A stretch of DNA of 5,371 nt from a virus. Lineage: Duplodnaviria > Heunggongvirae > Uroviricota > Caudoviricetes. Under the pieces are notes generated by a model, which saw nothing but the letters and a program-made list of their open reading frames with translations, searched no databases and was not told the origin of the DNA. The DNA lies in the IMG/VR virus record IMGVR_UViG_3300029738_000110. One strand, 5' to 3'. Each line of letters opens with the position of its first letter. Within the stretch, counting starts at the first letter, position 1. This document shows positions 1,669 to 5,361 of this stretch, piece after piece. The translations under genes and the position numbers were made by a program.

Positions 1669-4065
1669 ATGGCAGTAAAGATTTCAGGTGTACTGAAAGA
1701 CGGCACAGGAAAACCGGTACAGAACTGCTCAATCCAGCTGAAAGCAAAACGTAACAGCACCACGGTGGTAGTGAACACGCTGGCCTCAGAAAATCCGGAT
1801 GAAGCCGGGCGTTACAGTATGGATGTTGAGTATGGCCAGTACAGCGTTATCCTGCTGGTTGAAGGTTTTTCGCCTTCACATGCCGGGACCATCACCGTGT
1901 ATGAAGATTCTAAGCCGGGGACGCTGAATGATTTTCTCGGTGCCATGACGGAAGATGATGTCATGCCGGAGGCATTGCGTCGTTTTGAGGAAATGGTGGA
2001 AGAAGCGGCACGCAACGCTGAAGCCGCCTCTCAGAGCGCAGCGGCGGCAAAGAAATCCGAAACTGCAGCGGCATCATCGAAGAACGCGGCGAAAACCTCA
2101 GAAACGAATGCAGCTAATAGTGCACAGGCGGCAGCGACCTCAAAGACTGCATCGGCAAACTCCGCGACAGCAGCCAAAAAATCAGAAACCAACGCGAAAA
2201 ATAGCGAGACAGCCGCAAAGACGAGCGAAACCAACGCAAAGTCCAGCCAGACGGCAGCGAAAACCAGCGAAACGAATGCCAAAGCCAGTGAAACTGCGGC
2301 AAAAAACAGCCAGGTTGCAGCAGCCCAAAGCGAGAGCGCGGCAGCCGGTTCTGCGACTTCAGCAGCTGGATCAGCAACTGCTGCGGCTAACAGCCAGAAA
2401 GCTGCGAAGACGAGTGAAACTAACGCAAAGTCCAGCCAGACGGCAGCGAAGACCAGCGAAACGAATGCCAAAGCCAGCGAAACTGCGGCGAAAAACAGTC
2501 AGGATGCAGCAGCCCAAAGCGAGAGTGCTGCAGCTGGTTCTGCAAGCGCGGCGGCTGCTTCTGCCACTGCATCAGCCAACAGTCAAAAAGCAGCAAAAAC
2601 CAGTGAAACCAATGCAAAGACAAGCGAGACTGCAGCGGCGAACTCGGCGAAAGCATCGGCAGCAAGCCAGACAGCAGCTAAAGCAAGTGAAGACGCAGCC
2701 AGAGAGTATGCAAGTCAGGCAGCAGAGCCGTATAAATATGTCTTACAGCCACTGCCTGATGTGTGGATACCGTTTAACGATTCACTGGATATGATTACGG
2801 GCTTTTCGCCGTCATATAAAAAAATTGTTATTGGTGATGATGAAATAACGATGCCTGGCGACAAGGTTGTTAAGTTTAAACGCGCATCAACTGCCACATA
2901 TATCAATAAATCAGGCGTATTTAGTGTTGCTAAAATTGATGAGCCACGATTTGAAAAAGAAGGTTTATTGATTGAAGGACAGCGCACTAACTATTTTGTT
3001 AAATCCAATACTCCCGCTGAATGGACGAGTACCAGCAATATCGATAAAACTAATAATGGTGTTGATGAATTTGGTTTTTCATATGCCAAAATGCGAACAA
3101 AAGATAATATGACAGGACAATCATCTGCACTTAGTCTGCATACATGCAGTGCATCCCGGGGGATTGATGTTAGTGGCGATAATAAGTATTGCACTGTTTC
3201 ATGCAGGGTTAAAGCTCCTGATGGTCTTCGTTGTCGTTTGCGTTTTGAAAAATACGATGGGTCGGTTTATACATTTTTAGGAGATGCTTATTTAACTTTC
3301 GGAACTCTGATAATAGAAAAAACTGGCGGAGCAGCCAATAGAATAGCAGCTACTGCAACTAAAGATCCGGTTACAGGGTGGATTTTCTATGAGGCAACTA
3401 TAGAAGCTGTTGAAGGTGAAACCTTAATTGGCGCAATGATTCAGTATGCGCCGAAAAAAGGTGGTATAACTGAAGCGGGAGATTATATTTACCTTGCAAC
3501 ACCACAATTTGAAAACGGCGGATGTGCTTCATCTTTTGTTATTACGACAACTGCACCCGCAACCCGCTCCAGTGATATGGTGACGATCCCAACTGAAAAT
3601 AATATCTATAATAGACCGCTTACGTGTCTTGTCGAGGTTAATAGAAATTGGGGCGATATTCCTCCTAATGTAGCACCGCGTATTTTTGATTTTTCTGGTG
3701 TGCCACCTATTGAGTCAATTACATACGCTTTTAACACAACTGAGAAATATTACGGTCAGCTTTATATGCAAACTTATAAAGCGTCGACAAGTACTTACGT
3801 TTCTAGTGTGTTTGCTGGTCGAGCTGATGTTCGAAAATTCATTGGTGGTTTTAATATTTATTCTGATGGTACTAAACGAGTAGTTTCTAACGGTGAGGCT
3901 ACTAAAACTATGAAAACGGAGTGGACGGGCGTAAAAACACGGACCTTTATTCGAATTGGAGGTCAAGCCACATCGGGAACTCGTCATCTATTCGGCCATT
4001 TGAGAAATCTTCGTCTCTGGCATAAAGAATTAACTGATGCGCAAATGGGGGAGAGTATTAAATGA
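1669..4065 (+). CDS. stf: Side tail fibre protein (Stf family). It has a lambda-like N-terminal attachment domain, an Ala/Ser/Thr-rich repetitive shaft, and a divergent AT-rich distal (receptor-binding) domain.
   Basis: The 798-aa ORF starts MAVKISGVLKDGTGKPVQNCSIQLKAKRNSTTVVVNTLASENPDEAGRYSMDVEYGQYSVIL..., which matches the N-terminus of lambda Stf as I recall it. A G-rich Shine-Dalgarno (GGGGGGAA, 1660-1667) lies just upstream of the ATG. The central part is an SETNAK/TAAKTS repeat shaft. The C-terminus ends ...FGHLRNLRLWHKELTDAQMGESIK. Confidence 0.9.
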   Translation: MAVKISGVLKDGTGKPVQNCSIQLKAKRNSTTVVVNTLASENPDEAGRYSMDVEYGQYSVILLVEGFSPSHAGTITVYEDSKPGTLNDFLGAMTEDDVMPEALRRFEEMVEEAARNAEAASQSAAAAKKSETAAASSKNAAKTSETNAANSAQAAATSKTASANSATAAKKSETNAKNSETAAKTSETNAKSSQTAAKTSETNAKASETAAKNSQVAAAQSESAAAGSATSAAGSATAAANSQKAAKTSETNAKSSQTAAKTSETNAKASETAAKNSQDAAAQSESAAAGSASAAAASATASANSQKAAKTSETNAKTSETAAANSAKASAASQTAAKASEDAAREYASQAAEPYKYVLQPLPDVWIPFNDSLDMITGFSPSYKKIVIGDDEITMPGDKVVKFKRASTATYINKSGVFSVAKIDEPRFEKEGLLIEGQRTNYFVKSNTPAEWTSTSNIDKTNNGVDEFGFSYAKMRTKDNMTGQSSALSLHTCSASRGIDVSGDNKYCTVSCRVKAPDGLRCRLRFEKYDGSVYTFLGDAYLTFGTLIIEKTGGAANRIAATATKDPVTGWIFYEATIEAVEGETLIGAMIQYAPKKGGITEAGDYIYLATPQFENGGCASSFVITTTAPATRSSDMVTIPTENNIYNRPLTCLVEVNRNWGDIPPNVAPRIFDFSGVPPIESITYAFNTTEKYYGQLYMQTYKASTSTYVSSVFAGRADVRKFIGGFNIYSDGTKRVVSNGEATKTMKTEWTGVKTRTFIRIGGQATSGTRHLFGHLRNLRLWHKELTDAQMGESIK
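2215..2592 (+). repeat. In-frame tandem direct repeat of two 189-bp units (63 aa each) in the stf shaft, followed by a partial third unit to about 2645. It contains nested 27-33 bp sub-repeats encoding (A)AKTSETNAK-like motifs.
   Basis: Copy 1 begins gcaaagacgagcgaaaccaacgcaaagtccagccagacggcagcg at 2215. Copy 2 begins gcgaagacgagtgaaactaacgcaaagtccagccagacggcagcg at 2404, exactly 189 bp later. The copies are near-identical and differ mainly at synonymous positions plus a few substitutions. Confidence 0.85.
4047..4055 (+). promoter_or_regulatory. Shine-Dalgarno for the 93-aa ORF, embedded in the 3' end of stf
   Basis: GGGGGAGAG lies 6-7 nt upstream of the ATG at 4062. The ATG overlaps the stf stop (ATGA at 4062-4065). 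Confidence 0.55.
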
Positions 4066-4343
4066 AAGATTTAACACTCAAATTTGCAGACAGGGCCGAC
4101 TTTTCGGCCTTTATGGAGAGCATTGGCTATTATGATGACGAGTCGATGCAGGATGATATTCTTATTGACGTGATAGGTAATGTGTACAAAGAAACCGGAG
4201 AACTTACTGAAGATGGCGAGCCGGTATGTGTTAAGGAGGACGGATATTTTGTAAATGTGCGCATCATTAATGATTCGCAAATATCGTCATTATTCGATGA
4301 ATACGTGGTTGCTGTTGAGCATCAACTCCGTAGCTGGATGTGA
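4062..4343 (+). CDS. Small acidic hypothetical protein (93 aa), translationally coupled to stf. Candidate tail-fibre accessory or chaperone protein, unrelated to Tfa.
   Basis: The ORF has an ATG start with an upstream Shine-Dalgarno and a 4-bp ATGA overlap with the stf stop. It is Asp/Glu-rich (MKDLTLKFADRADFSAFMESIGYYDDESMQDDILIDVIGNVYKETGELTEDGEPVCVKEDGYF...). It shares the AT-rich composition of the stf distal domain. I recognise no family. Confidence 0.6.
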   Translation: MKDLTLKFADRADFSAFMESIGYYDDESMQDDILIDVIGNVYKETGELTEDGEPVCVKEDGYFVNVRIINDSQISSLFDEYVVAVEHQLRSWM

Positions 4344-4352: not shown

Positions 4353-5057
4353 ATGGCTACATCGACAGTAATTCCTGATGACATCAAAACGCTAAAGGGA
4401 GATGTCAGTAAGGCAAAGGAAGATATTTCCTCAATTAACGTAAAAGTATCAACGCTTCAGACTGATATGGACAGTGCAAAGCAGGATATCAGTACCAGAT
4501 ACACAAAAACAGAAGTGGATAATAAGCTGAAAAACAAAGTGGAAGTGAACGATCTGGAAAGTGGTCGTTATGGCGGAGATTTTTACCCGCTGACTGGCCG
4601 TGAAGCGTTTTATTTATGGGGATTGGGCACAACTACAGCGGCGGCAAATCTTTATCTTAATCCTGACCCTGCAATTTCGTCTGTGCTGCGGTCAACATCG
4701 TCTATCCGCTATAAACATTCAGTAGAGACGATAGATTCAGAGCACGCCGATCTCATTTTCAGGATGCGCCCTGTGTGGTACAGGTCGCAATGCGAAAATG
4801 ACAGGCGTGACTGGGGATTCTATGGATTGATTGCCGAGGAAGTTGGAGAAATTGCCCCTCAGTTTGTTCACTGGCGACCAGCCAACGAAGATGATGCACC
4901 GGAAACCATTTCCAGCAATGGCCTTGTTGCCGAAGGTGTAATGTACGAACGTCTGGTTGTTCCACTGATTCACCATATCCAGAAGCTGACTGAAAGAGTT
5001 GATGAACTTGAGTCAGAATTAAAGTTGTTATCCGTTTCCCGAAGCGATATCGGATAA
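4353..5057 (+). CDS. Tail-fibre-like protein with an N-terminal coiled coil and a C-terminal intramolecular chaperone domain (peptidase S74 / endosialidase-chaperone type), 234 aa
   Basis: The N-terminal 70 aa or so are heptad-like and charged (DIKTLKGDVSKAKEDISSINVKVSTLQTDMDSAKQDISTRYTKTEVDNKLKNKVEV). The C-terminal half carries the characteristic chaperone-domain pattern: SSIRYK (aa 116-121, nt 4698-4715; compare the S-D-x-R-x-K autocleavage motif), then VETID..ADLIFRMRPVWYR, then GFYGLIAEEVGEIAPQFV (compare GxIAQEVxxVxPExV), then GVMYERLVVPLIHHIQKLTERVDELESEL (compare the conserved Y..L..LI.AIQEL coiled-coil tail). Confidence 0.75.
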   Translation: MATSTVIPDDIKTLKGDVSKAKEDISSINVKVSTLQTDMDSAKQDISTRYTKTEVDNKLKNKVEVNDLESGRYGGDFYPLTGREAFYLWGLGTTTAAANLYLNPDPAISSVLRSTSSIRYKHSVETIDSEHADLIFRMRPVWYRSQCENDRRDWGFYGLIAEEVGEIAPQFVHWRPANEDDAPETISSNGLVAEGVMYERLVVPLIHHIQKLTERVDELESELKLLSVSRSDIG

Positions 5058-5067: not shown

Positions 5068-5361
5068 ATGGATATAACACCTTTCCTTCATGCACTTTGT
5101 GCTGTGGCTGCGCAGGTACTGGTTGGTCTTTTTACCGGAAACTGGGCTTACGGGGCGATAGCTGGTTGTACGTTCTTCATTGCGCGTGAACATACCCAGG
5201 CAGAATATCGCTGGATTGAAATGTTCGGGCATGGCAAGCGTATGAATATGCCGTGGTGGGGCGGTTTTGATCCGCGTGCGTGGGATGTGGCAAGCCTGAT
5301 GGATTTTGCTGTGCCGGTGGTGGCGTGTCTGCTGGTCTGGCTGTTGGTTAATCGTGGGTGA
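5068..5361 (+). CDS. Small predicted inner-membrane protein (97 aa, two hydrophobic helices), function unknown. Candidate prophage moron.
   Basis: It has an ATG start with a consensus Shine-Dalgarno. Hydrophobic segments lie at about aa 6-36 (FLHALCAVAAQVLVGLFTGNWAYGAIAGCTFFIA) and aa 76-95 (LMDFAVPVVACLLVWLLV). They are separated by a polar, Trp-rich loop (EYRWIEMFGHGKRMNMPWWGGFDPRAWD). Confidence 0.65.
   Translation: MDITPFLHALCAVAAQVLVGLFTGNWAYGAIAGCTFFIAREHTQAEYRWIEMFGHGKRMNMPWWGGFDPRAWDVASLMDFAVPVVACLLVWLLVNRG

What the first reader, a model, noticed from the sequence alone, without database searches (positions are those of the whole stretch)
4062..4343. Canonical tfa is missing; a translationally coupled 93-aa acidic ORF sits in its place
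In lambda and in lambdoid prophages generally, stf is followed directly by tfa, the tail-fibre assembly chaperone of about 190 aa. Here the gene after stf is an unrelated 93-aa Asp/Glu-rich protein whose ATG overlaps the stf stop codon (ATGA). That arrangement implies coupled, stoichiometric expression, which is typical of fibre and chaperone or fibre and adhesin pairs. It shares the low-GC composition of the stf distal domain, so it appears to have been imported with the receptor-binding module. It may be a new, dedicated chaperone or adaptor for that module. Less probably it is an acidic decoy or DNA-mimic-type moron.
Basis: partly seen in the sequence, partly recalled or inferred. Interest (0 to 1): 0.6.

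Follow-up and report, generated by a model that had tools for sequence, protein, structure and literature searches.

The report
Small accessory gene of lectin-head fibres
This 93-residue acidic protein gene is real and sits directly behind one particular kind of phage tail-fibre gene (fibres ending in lectin-like heads) in hundreds of phages and about a fifth of E. coli genomes, so it is an unstudied helper of that fibre rather than something special to this prophage.

Summary
ORF 4062-4343 encodes a 93-aa protein of pI 4.05. Its ATG overlaps the stf stop codon (ATGA). No Tfa is encoded in the window.

It is not an orphan. It matches phrog_1361 (function unknown) over its full length. The window-type allele occurs in 988 of 5,426 complete E. 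coli genomes.

In 174 loci (173 fetched plus this window), and in lambdoid, T1-like, T5-like, Queuovirinae, rV5-like, P2-like and Aeromonas phages, a family member directly follows a fibre gene with the same distal architecture. That architecture is a conserved 'mid' segment followed by two lectin-like beta-sandwich domains. The start codon overlaps the fibre stop codon in 168 of 173 parsed copies.

A natural swap ties the gene to that head. rV5 gp41 and the EmilHeitz fibre are 90% identical for 1,049 residues. rV5 then ends in a self-cleaving S74 chaperone domain and has no small ORF. EmilHeitz ends in the lectin head and has the small ORF.

The protein does not co-diversify with the head (one allele pairs with 12 head types). 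It is kept under purifying selection even where no second fibre follows.

Best reading: it is the constant, trans-acting assembly factor or cap of lectin-head fibres, and may also serve as the docking platform for a second, distal fibre. The decoy or DNA-mimic reading is rejected. No experimental data on it were found.

The parts
1669..4065 (+). stf, 798-aa side tail fibre. It has a lambdoid N-terminal anchor (aa 1-131), an Ala/Ser-rich repeat shaft, and then the imported distal cassette.
   Evidence: Pfam phage_tail_N 1.2e-68; phrog_1419 full length; NCBIfam GTA_spike_fiber at aa 434-634. A 189-bp tandem repeat lies in the shaft.
2719..2970 (+). Conserved 'mid' segment of Stf (aa 351-434). 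It is the left constant arm of the head cassette.
   Evidence: 70-100% identical across lambdoid, T1-like, T5-like and Queuovirinae fibres while the following domains fall to 31-58%. Nucleotide homology to many lambdoid phages stops at about nt 2955. It is low-confidence in the monomer model, as expected for an intertwined trimer segment.
2971..4065 (+). Variable receptor-binding head of Stf: a GTA-spike-fibre beta-sandwich followed by a basic C-terminal LamG/lectin-like domain.
   Evidence: NCBIfam NF048003. The confident part of the AF2 model matches tandem LamG, CBM40 and BoNT-Hc folds and a Pa193 tail-fibre chain. Homologous heads are called 'galectin-like' (PMC11990801) and 'lectin-like head D69' (PMC12143355). 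The last 164 aa have pI 9.5. There are 25 head clusters among 174 loci.
4047..4055 (+). Shine-Dalgarno-like GGGGGAGAG inside the end of stf, 6 nt upstream of the small ORF's ATG.
   Evidence: Read directly from the sequence.
4062..4343 (+). The finding: a 93-aa acidic alpha/beta protein, member of phrog_1361, and the constant accessory gene of the lectin-head fibre cassette.
4353..5057 (+). 234-aa mini distal fibre: N-terminal docking motif (MATSTVIPDDIKTLK, nt 4353-4397), a coiled coil, then a self-cleaving Peptidase_S74 intramolecular chaperone (aa 116-172, nt 4698-4868).
   Evidence: Pfam PF13884. phrog_3299/454 C-terminal matches. The motif M.T.T.IP.DI..LK is shared by the downstream fibres of four phage families. 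The motif-bearing first 26 residues occur only behind head fibre plus small ORF. This gene alternates with a 346-aa allele in the same slot.
5068..5361 (+). 97-aa two-TM membrane protein. It is context only and probably not part of the fibre.
   Evidence: phrog_1443, unknown function. Annotated as a putative membrane protein in phage 21. It follows the module with or without a distal fibre.

Best explanation
The 93-aa protein is the constant, trans-acting accessory subunit of a mobile 'lectin-head' lateral tail-fibre cassette.

Proposed mechanism. It is translated in step with the fibre, because its start codon overlaps the fibre stop codon. It binds the conserved, basic C-terminal end of the fibre rather than the variable sugar-binding surfaces. 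It is needed to fold, trimerise or cap that end. That is the job done in other fibres by a C-terminal S74 intramolecular chaperone or by Tfa. In phages that carry a second, distal fibre it probably stays on the particle and contributes to the platform that receives the distal fibre's conserved N-terminal docking peptide.

Shown here: the strict gene linkage to the head-type fibre, the coupling geometry, purifying selection, independence from head sequence variation, and persistence without a distal fibre.

Inferred: physical binding to the fibre end, the chaperone or cap activity, and retention in the virion.
For: (1) Linkage. All 174 loci that carry a family member (173 fetched loci plus this window) have it directly after a fibre gene with the mid + GTA-spike + C-terminal-domain architecture. 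In the phage collection the head module is found in 206-222 records. The small ORF is found in about 213 once divergent clades are counted. In 4 of 4 sampled records that seemed to lack it, a divergent member was present.
(2) Natural swap. rV5 gp41 and EmilHeitz bas49_0026 are 90.5% identical over residues 1-1049. rV5 then has an RBD plus Peptidase_S74 and no family member in 16 kb. EmilHeitz has the lectin head plus the small ORF.
(3) Every other fibre in these loci has a recognised chaperone: S74 in 7 of 8 distal fibres and Caudo_TAP after the eighth. The head-type fibre has none apart from this gene.
(4) The gene is retained intact under purifying selection where no distal fibre exists. In the phage-21 lineage 47 of 47 evaluable loci lack a distal fibre and dN/dS is 0.31. 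The same holds in rV5-like and Aeromonas phages.
(5) The start overlaps the fibre stop in 168 of 173 copies, and no terminator or promoter lies between the genes.
(6) Charge complementarity. The small protein has net charge -8 to -14 and the fibre's last 164 aa have pI 8.9-9.7 in 21 of 25 allele combinations, although that domain is only about 40% identical between variants. The least acidic small protein is paired with the only acidic head C-terminus.
(7) The fibre's last ~35 residues are nearly invariant and rich in Arg, His and Lys.
Against: No experiment or co-fold shows binding. Globular lectin domains usually fold without help. The small protein does not co-vary with the head, so any contact must involve conserved elements. 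The conserved flanks could instead be kept mainly as recombination arms. The fold has no similarity to any known chaperone. The charge pattern is only a correlation, and the sequences compared are not independent. The poor AF2 confidence for the fibre's C-terminal domain may simply reflect a shallow alignment. The IMG/VR loci are dominated by closely related E. coli prophages, so the number of independent lineages is about 10, not 174.
Confidence: 0.5

Rival explanations
1. Its primary role is structural. It is a small 'knee' or adaptor protein retained in the virion that joins the distal fibre (through that fibre's N-terminal docking peptide) to the end of the proximal lectin-head fibre, producing a branched or two-segment lateral fibre.
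For: In most siphovirus loci the small ORF lies between a proximal and a distal fibre gene. The distal fibres of four families share the motif M.T.T.IP.DI..LK while their bodies are unrelated. The first 26 residues occur only in phages with head fibre plus small ORF; the same fibre bodies in other contexts start matching at residue 27-49. The mid segment, small protein and docking peptide form a conserved triad flanking two variable modules. The BASEL authors annotate the T5-like copies as 'tail fiber protein' and infer that the distal fibre attaches to the proximal one (PMC11990801).
Against: The gene is kept intact and under purifying selection in lineages with no distal fibre and no docking motif anywhere in the locus. 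These are 47 of 47 phage-21-type prophages, rV5-like phages and two Aeromonas phages. In the rV5/EmilHeitz swap the gene comes with the head and not with any distal fibre. Known branched fibres (DT57C LtfA/LtfB, G7C, CBA120) join fibre to fibre directly, without a small adaptor (PMC4728585 and my own knowledge).
Confidence: 0.3
2. It is a regulator or mask of the lectin head. As an acidic partner it would occupy or shield the basic sugar-binding domain inside the producing cell, for example to prevent binding to cytoplasmic glycan intermediates or aggregation, and it would be released on assembly or lysis.
For: Strict linkage to the lectin head. A conserved acidic/basic charge pairing. Stoichiometric coupled expression.
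Against: It shows no co-variation with the variable, presumably sugar-binding, surfaces. I know of no precedent for such a mask in phage fibres. In practice this is hard to distinguish from a holdase-type chaperone.
Confidence: 0.07
3. It is a moron unrelated to the fibre (an acidic decoy, DNA mimic or anti-defence protein) that happens to sit behind stf.
For: It is small, very acidic (pI 4.05), lies in low-GC DNA and is of unknown function.
Against: It sits inside the fibre operon of virulent T1-like, T5-like, rV5-like and Queuovirinae phages, with its start overlapping the fibre stop. It is exchanged together with the head cassette. It gives no Pfam, NCBIfam or PADLOC hit and no structural match to Ocr- or ArdA-type mimics. 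It has no promoter of its own.
Confidence: 0.03

Closest known systems
Lambda Tfa / Caudo_TAP (PF02413) tail-fibre assembly proteins (lambda Tfa, P2 G, Mu U)
   Same: Both are encoded immediately 3' of the fibre gene. Lambda tfa also overlaps the stf stop by 1 nt (from memory). Both are inferred to be needed for assembly of the fibre's distal end. Mu's Tfa stays bound to the fibre tip (from memory).
   Different: There is no sequence or profile similarity (Pfam no hit; hhalign probability 0.2%). It is half the size. It serves a lectin-type head rather than a gp37/H-type tip. It coexists with a true Tfa in L175, where the Tfa follows the distal fibre.
Peptidase_S74 intramolecular chaperone domains (K1F endosialidase, T5 pb1, DT57C LtfA/LtfB)
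   Same: It occupies the equivalent place in the rV5/EmilHeitz comparison: one fibre ends in S74, and the other ends in the lectin head plus this separate gene. Both are attached to the 3' end of the fibre coding region.
   Different: It is a separate polypeptide, not a self-cleaving C-terminal domain. It has no S74 motif or Pfam hit and a different fold.
T4 gp57A and gp38 (small trans-acting fibre chaperones) and T4 gp35 (the monomeric 'knee' between half-fibres)
   Same: gp57A is also a small acidic protein needed for fibre trimerisation. gp35 is a precedent for a non-fibrous protein joining two fibre segments. Both statements are from my own knowledge.
   Different: No Pfam hit to any T4 family. 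gp57A is all-helical, whereas this protein is alpha/beta. gp35 is four times larger. None of these is linked to lectin-type heads.
Branched lateral tail fibres of T5-like phages DT57C and DT571/2 (LtfA + LtfB)
   Same: Both have two fibre genes in tandem, with a distal fibre thought to hang on the proximal one (PMC4728585, PMC10713586). The distal fibre bodies are homologous to IrisVonRoten Gp24 from residue 27 onward.
   Different: DT57C LtfA ends in its own S74 domain. Neither paper mentions a small ORF (one search finds no 'small ORF' or 'hypothetical protein', and the only third Ltf protein is LtfC), and the gene numbering (gp107 LtfB, gp108 LtfA) leaves no gene between them. The docking peptide is absent: the match starts at residue 27.
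phrog_1361 (PHROGs v4, 'unknown function')
   Same: Full-length match, residues 1-93 on profile 1-92, E 2.7e-46. This gene is a member.
   Different: The family carries no functional annotation. The linkage to lectin-head fibres described here is not recorded there.

Membership tests
phrog_1361 (uncharacterised phage protein family) | Significant full-length match to the family HMM | tested here: met
   E 2.7e-46, 156.6 bits, residues 1-93 on profile positions 1-92 of 92.
Caudo_TAP / lambda Tfa tail-fibre assembly proteins | Match to PF02413, or profile similarity to a bona fide Tfa | tested here: not met
   No Pfam family at E<=0.1. hhalign of the 23-sequence family profile against the L175 Tfa gives probability 0.2%.
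Caudo_TAP / lambda Tfa tail-fibre assembly proteins | Gene immediately downstream of, and co-expressed with, the fibre gene it serves | tested here: met
   The start overlaps the fibre stop in 168 of 173 copies. No terminator lies between the genes. This feature is positional and functional, not evidence of homology.
Caudo_TAP / lambda Tfa tail-fibre assembly proteins | Required for fibre trimerisation and assembly | not testable with these tools
   This needs deletion/complementation or co-expression experiments.
Peptidase_S74 intramolecular chaperone | S74 domain with the Ser-Lys autocleavage motif at the C-terminus of the fibre polypeptide | tested here: not met
   No PF13884 hit in Stf or in the 93-aa protein. 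The domain is present only in the downstream 234-aa ORF, at aa 116-172.
Acidic DNA mimics / anti-restriction proteins (Ocr, ArdA and similar) | Sequence or fold similarity to a known mimic, with early or moron-type expression | tested here: not met
Branched two-protein lateral tail fibre (DT57C LtfA/LtfB type) | Proximal fibre with its own S74 domain directly followed by a second S74 fibre, with no intervening gene | tested here: not met
   The proximal fibre here ends in a lectin-like head without S74. A small ORF intervenes. The distal fibre carries an extra N-terminal docking peptide that is absent from DT57C.
Lectin-head fibre cassette (head fibre + small ORF, with or without a docking-motif distal fibre), as defined here | Fibre with conserved mid segment + GTA-spike-fibre domain + basic C-terminal beta-sandwich, followed by an overlapping small ORF of the family | tested here: met
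   The window shows all elements. The same arrangement is seen in 174 loci from about 10 lineages.

The most novel reading that the evidence does not exclude
The small protein is a previously unrecognised class of fibre assembly factor that also forms a universal joint. Together with the conserved mid segment of the proximal fibre and the 15-26-residue docking peptide of the distal fibre, it would make a constant junction on which both the lectin heads and the distal fibres can be exchanged freely. That would explain how lambdoid, T1-like, T5-like, Queuovirinae and P2-like phages swap O-antigen specificities so easily. It would also define the accessory gene that must be carried along when such fibres are engineered.
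Probability: 0.3. Interest if true: 0.6.

Novelty: new variant of a known kind. Interest (0 to 1): 0.45.

Why it matters
Lateral tail fibres decide which O-antigen types a phage can penetrate. Lectin-head fibres of this type are common in the model phage collections (BASEL) and in E. coli prophages: 18% of complete genomes carry this allele alone.

If the small protein is required to assemble or cap these fibres, or to hang a second fibre on them, two things follow:
- It is a missing part in current structural models. The published AlphaFold models of the IrisVonRoten fibre complex do not mention it.
- It is a component that must be co-transferred when host range is re-engineered with chimeric Stf proteins.

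It would also add a third, unrelated solution to fibre assembly, next to Tfa-type chaperones and S74 intramolecular chaperones. The gene itself is ordinary in the sense that it is widespread and already catalogued as a family of unknown function.

Tried and rejected
(1) Co-fold of the small protein with the distal fibre N-terminus by read-through translation. The two ORFs share a frame, but the tool refuses sequences containing a stop codon. A hand-made fusion is not a window sequence, so I did not attempt one. A fusion with Stf is impossible because the frames differ.

(3) An alignment-based locus search failed because no conserved 7-10-column stretch existed. The VogelGryff-type query found nothing in IMG/VR. 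The exact-sequence look-up of P0295 failed.

(4) Literature. No paper I could search discusses the small protein: DT57C, BASEL 2021 and 2025, RBPseg, BF23 and the Eligo Stf-engineering preprint. One search was wasted on the term 'BASEL'. The AKFV33 virion proteome used only four bands from a 10% gel and could not have detected a 10-kDa protein.

(5) The idea that the small protein is the distal fibre's chaperone was rejected. Those fibres carry S74 or are followed by Tfa.

(6) The idea that it co-evolves with the receptor-binding head was rejected.

(7) The monomer model of the Stf distal region was confident only for the central beta-sandwich, so I draw no conclusion from the poorly predicted C-terminal domain.
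Full report
WHAT IS IN THE WINDOW. The window is the right end of a lambdoid tail-gene cluster. It contains the C-terminal part of J (66-935), lom (1005-1604), a 798-aa stf (1669-4065), the 93-aa ORF of the finding (4062-4343), a 234-aa ORF (4353-5057) and a 97-aa membrane protein ORF (5068-5361). The closest phage is Escherichia phage PhiR49_1, at 98.7% identity over 99% of the window. There the small ORF is annotated as a hypothetical protein. Terminator-like hairpins follow J and lom, as in lambda. None lies between stf and the end of the window, and there is no plus-strand promoter-like site there. This is consistent with stf, the small ORF, the 234-aa ORF and the membrane protein being read from one transcript.

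CHECK OF THE OBSERVATION. The ATG at 4062 overlaps the stf TGA (ATGA), and GGGGGAGAG lies 6 nt upstream. The protein has 21 acidic and 7 basic residues and a pI of 4.05. GC drops from about 0.55 to about 0.40 at about nt 2700 and stays low through the ORF. No Tfa/Caudo_TAP domain is encoded in the window. It is incomplete in one respect: the small ORF is followed by a second fibre-like gene.

THE NEIGHBOURHOOD IS INVARIANT ON THE UPSTREAM SIDE. I fetched 175 loci besides the window. These came from annotated phages (lambdoid, phage 21, Drexlerviridae, Queuovirinae, T5-like, rV5-like, two Aeromonas phages), from IMG/VR prophage contigs in three lambdoid allele classes, and from a P2-like phage-plasmid. 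In the first 89 of them, every small ORF follows a fibre gene whose last ~450 residues align with Stf 351-798. That region has a strongly conserved 'mid' segment (70-100% identity across families, though only 37% in the rV5-like fibre), a GTA-spike-fibre beta-sandwich, and a C-terminal domain. Among the 174 loci held, a profile search found a family member in 173 of them and also in the window, 174 in all. The single exception was rV5. One copy could not be parsed for its start. Among the other 173, the start codon overlaps the fibre stop in 168: 82 as ATGA and 86 with a 1-nt overlap.

In the phage collection the head module occurs in 222 records, 206 of them with at least 80% coverage. The 40 or so records that lacked a tblastn hit for the small protein turned out to carry divergent members. 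All four that I sampled scored 39-67 bits against the family profile. Searches with two of those members recover about 25 further records. The correspondence between head and small ORF is therefore close to one-to-one.

A NATURAL SWAP LINKS THE GENE TO THE HEAD. rV5 gp41 and the EmilHeitz fibre bas49_0026 are 90.5% identical over residues 1-1049. Beyond that point rV5 has a receptor-binding region ending in a Peptidase_S74 intramolecular chaperone, and no family member occurs anywhere in the 16 kb examined. EmilHeitz has the lectin-type head followed by the small ORF. The RBPseg study noted the same replacement between the orthologous fibres of MaxBurger (S74) and EmilHeitz ('lectin-like head D69') and saw it by cryo-EM. 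It does not mention the small ORF (PMC12143355). My monomer model of Stf 351-798 is confident only for the central beta-sandwich. Its matches are tandem LamG domains, CBM40, BoNT Hc and a Pa193 fibre chain. These agree with the 'galectin-like' and 'lectin-like' descriptions in the literature (PMC11990801).

THE DOWNSTREAM SIDE IS VARIABLE BUT INFORMATIVE. In most siphovirus loci a second fibre gene follows, of 221 to 586 aa. These proteins are unrelated in their bodies. They share an N-terminal motif (M-x-T-x-T-x-I-P-x-D-I-x-x-L-K) and end in Peptidase_S74. The window's 234-aa ORF is the shortest version, with only about 115 residues expected to remain after self-cleavage. In the same slot other prophages carry a 346-aa allele. 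A search with the first 100 residues of IrisVonRoten Gp24 gave a clear split. Matches including residues 1-26 occur only in phages that have the head fibre plus small ORF. Where the same fibre body appears elsewhere (DT57C LtfA, Wifcevirus, Dhillonvirus, phiEco32-like phages), the match starts at residue 27-49. The N-terminal peptide is therefore a context-specific attachment element.

In the P2-like phage-plasmid (L175) the distal fibre has the docking motif but ends in a gp37/H-type tip, and it is followed by an intact Caudo_TAP Tfa. So each distal fibre brings its own chaperone. The small ORF is not that chaperone, and it is not an alternative to Tfa in the strict sense.

THE SMALL PROTEIN IS A CONSTANT PART, NOT A SPECIFICITY PARTNER. 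The window-type allele cluster (at least 85% identity, n=83) is paired with 12 different head clusters, some only 32-58% identical to one another. It is paired with either distal-fibre allele. Conversely, the L175 head is 74% identical to the window's head while its small protein is only 48% identical. Nucleotide homology between the window and many lambdoid phages stops at about nt 2955, the end of the mid segment, and resumes at the small ORF. The head is thus a cassette exchanged between two conserved arms, and the small ORF is the right-hand arm.

IT IS MAINTAINED WITHOUT A DISTAL FIBRE. The phage-21-type allele (n=50) is followed directly by the membrane protein gene in all 47 evaluable loci. 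It is nevertheless intact and under purifying selection. The rV5-like phages and two Aeromonas phages, one of them a myovirus, also lack a docking-motif fibre in the locus. The core function therefore concerns the upstream fibre.

A HINT AT THE CONTACT. In 21 of 25 allele combinations the small protein carries a net charge of -8 to -14, and the fibre's last 164 residues have pI 8.9-9.7. This holds although that domain is only about 40% identical between variants. The least acidic small protein (SelmaRatti, net -3) is paired with the only acidic C-terminal domain. The fibre's last ~35 residues are almost invariant and rich in Arg, His and Lys. This is suggestive only.

INTERPRETATION. The best-supported reading is that the protein is a trans-acting assembly factor or cap for lectin-head fibres, made stoichiometrically with the fibre by translational coupling. 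It would fill the role that an S74 domain or Tfa fills for other fibres. Because it is conserved together with the mid segment and the distal fibres' docking peptide, it may additionally stay on the particle and form part of the junction for the distal fibre. The main rival makes that structural 'knee' role primary. Against this, the gene persists where there is no distal fibre. A mask or regulator of the lectin domain cannot be excluded. An unrelated moron or DNA mimic is effectively excluded by the gene's position in the late fibre operons of virulent phages and by the cassette swap.

LIMITS. Nothing here demonstrates binding, and I found no experimental data. The BASEL papers, the DT57C papers, RBPseg and the BF23 paper do not discuss the protein. 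The one mention of 'Gp23' in PMC11990801 is evidently a slip for the proximal fibre Gp22. The AKFV33 virion proteome confirmed the head-type fibre ORF137 but could not have detected the 10-kDa ORF136. Multimer prediction was not possible with the tools allowed. Most loci are closely related E. coli prophages, so the counts overstate the number of independent observations, which is about ten lineages.

VERDICT. It is partly wrong: the gene is not new, is not dedicated to this head variant, and is not simply a substitute for Tfa. The gene is a member of a widespread, catalogued, functionally unstudied family. As a kind it is a new variant of fibre accessory protein. Interest is moderate.

Noticed in passing
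window 5068-5361: A 97-aa membrane protein with two TM segments (phrog_1443, unknown function). It follows the fibre module in lambdoid prophages whether or not a distal fibre is present, and it often marks the end of the predicted prophage contig. The position is typical of lysogenic-conversion or superinfection-exclusion genes. It has no PADLOC hit.
   Followed up: partly
window 4353-5057: The 234-aa ORF is a minimal distal fibre: docking motif, coiled coil, then Peptidase_S74 from residue 116. After self-cleavage only about 115 residues would remain. It alternates with an unrelated 346-aa S74 fibre in the same slot in other prophages. In KarlJaspers the homologue is annotated 'putative lateral tail fiber chaperone', probably only because of the S74 Pfam name.
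   Followed up: partly
L001 (PhiR49_1) 7383-7517, about 2 kb beyond the window's right end: A 44-aa 'tail fiber assembly protein Tfa' fragment survives downstream of the module in the near-identical phage. This suggests the lectin-head cassette displaced an ancestral stf-C/tfa pair. In that phage lom is annotated as two CDS, whereas it is intact in the window.
   Followed up: no
window 2166-2637: The stf shaft contains a 189-bp tandem repeat (2.3 copies, 83% match) built from 21/42-bp subrepeats. These encode the Ala/Ser/Thr-rich SETNAK-type heptads. The region has extreme AT skew (0.5-0.6) and produces many spurious antisense ORFs.
   Followed up: partly
L175 (E. coli contig SSPJ01000031.1) 4001-8920: A P2-like tail module sits next to an IncFII RepA gene, so this is probably a phage-plasmid. 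It carries the same head + small ORF + docking-motif distal fibre cassette grafted onto a Phage_fiber_2 N-terminus, followed by an intact Caudo_TAP.
   Followed up: partly
L005 (EmilHeitz) 6001-6333 and other rV5-like phages: In rV5-like phages the small protein is 110 aa. It shares only residues 1-71 with the family, and the conserved C-terminal P-x-R-x-W tail is replaced by an unrelated tail. These phages also have the most divergent mid segment (37%) and no docking-motif fibre. This could mean the C-terminal tail is the part that serves the distal fibre.
   Followed up: no
phage-collection hits: Several records labelled Campylobacter or Listeria phage (e.g. MG065666, OR847733) carry T5-like or rV5-like coliphage fibre modules that are near-identical to those of E. 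coli phages. These are probably contaminant or mislabelled assemblies.
   Followed up: no
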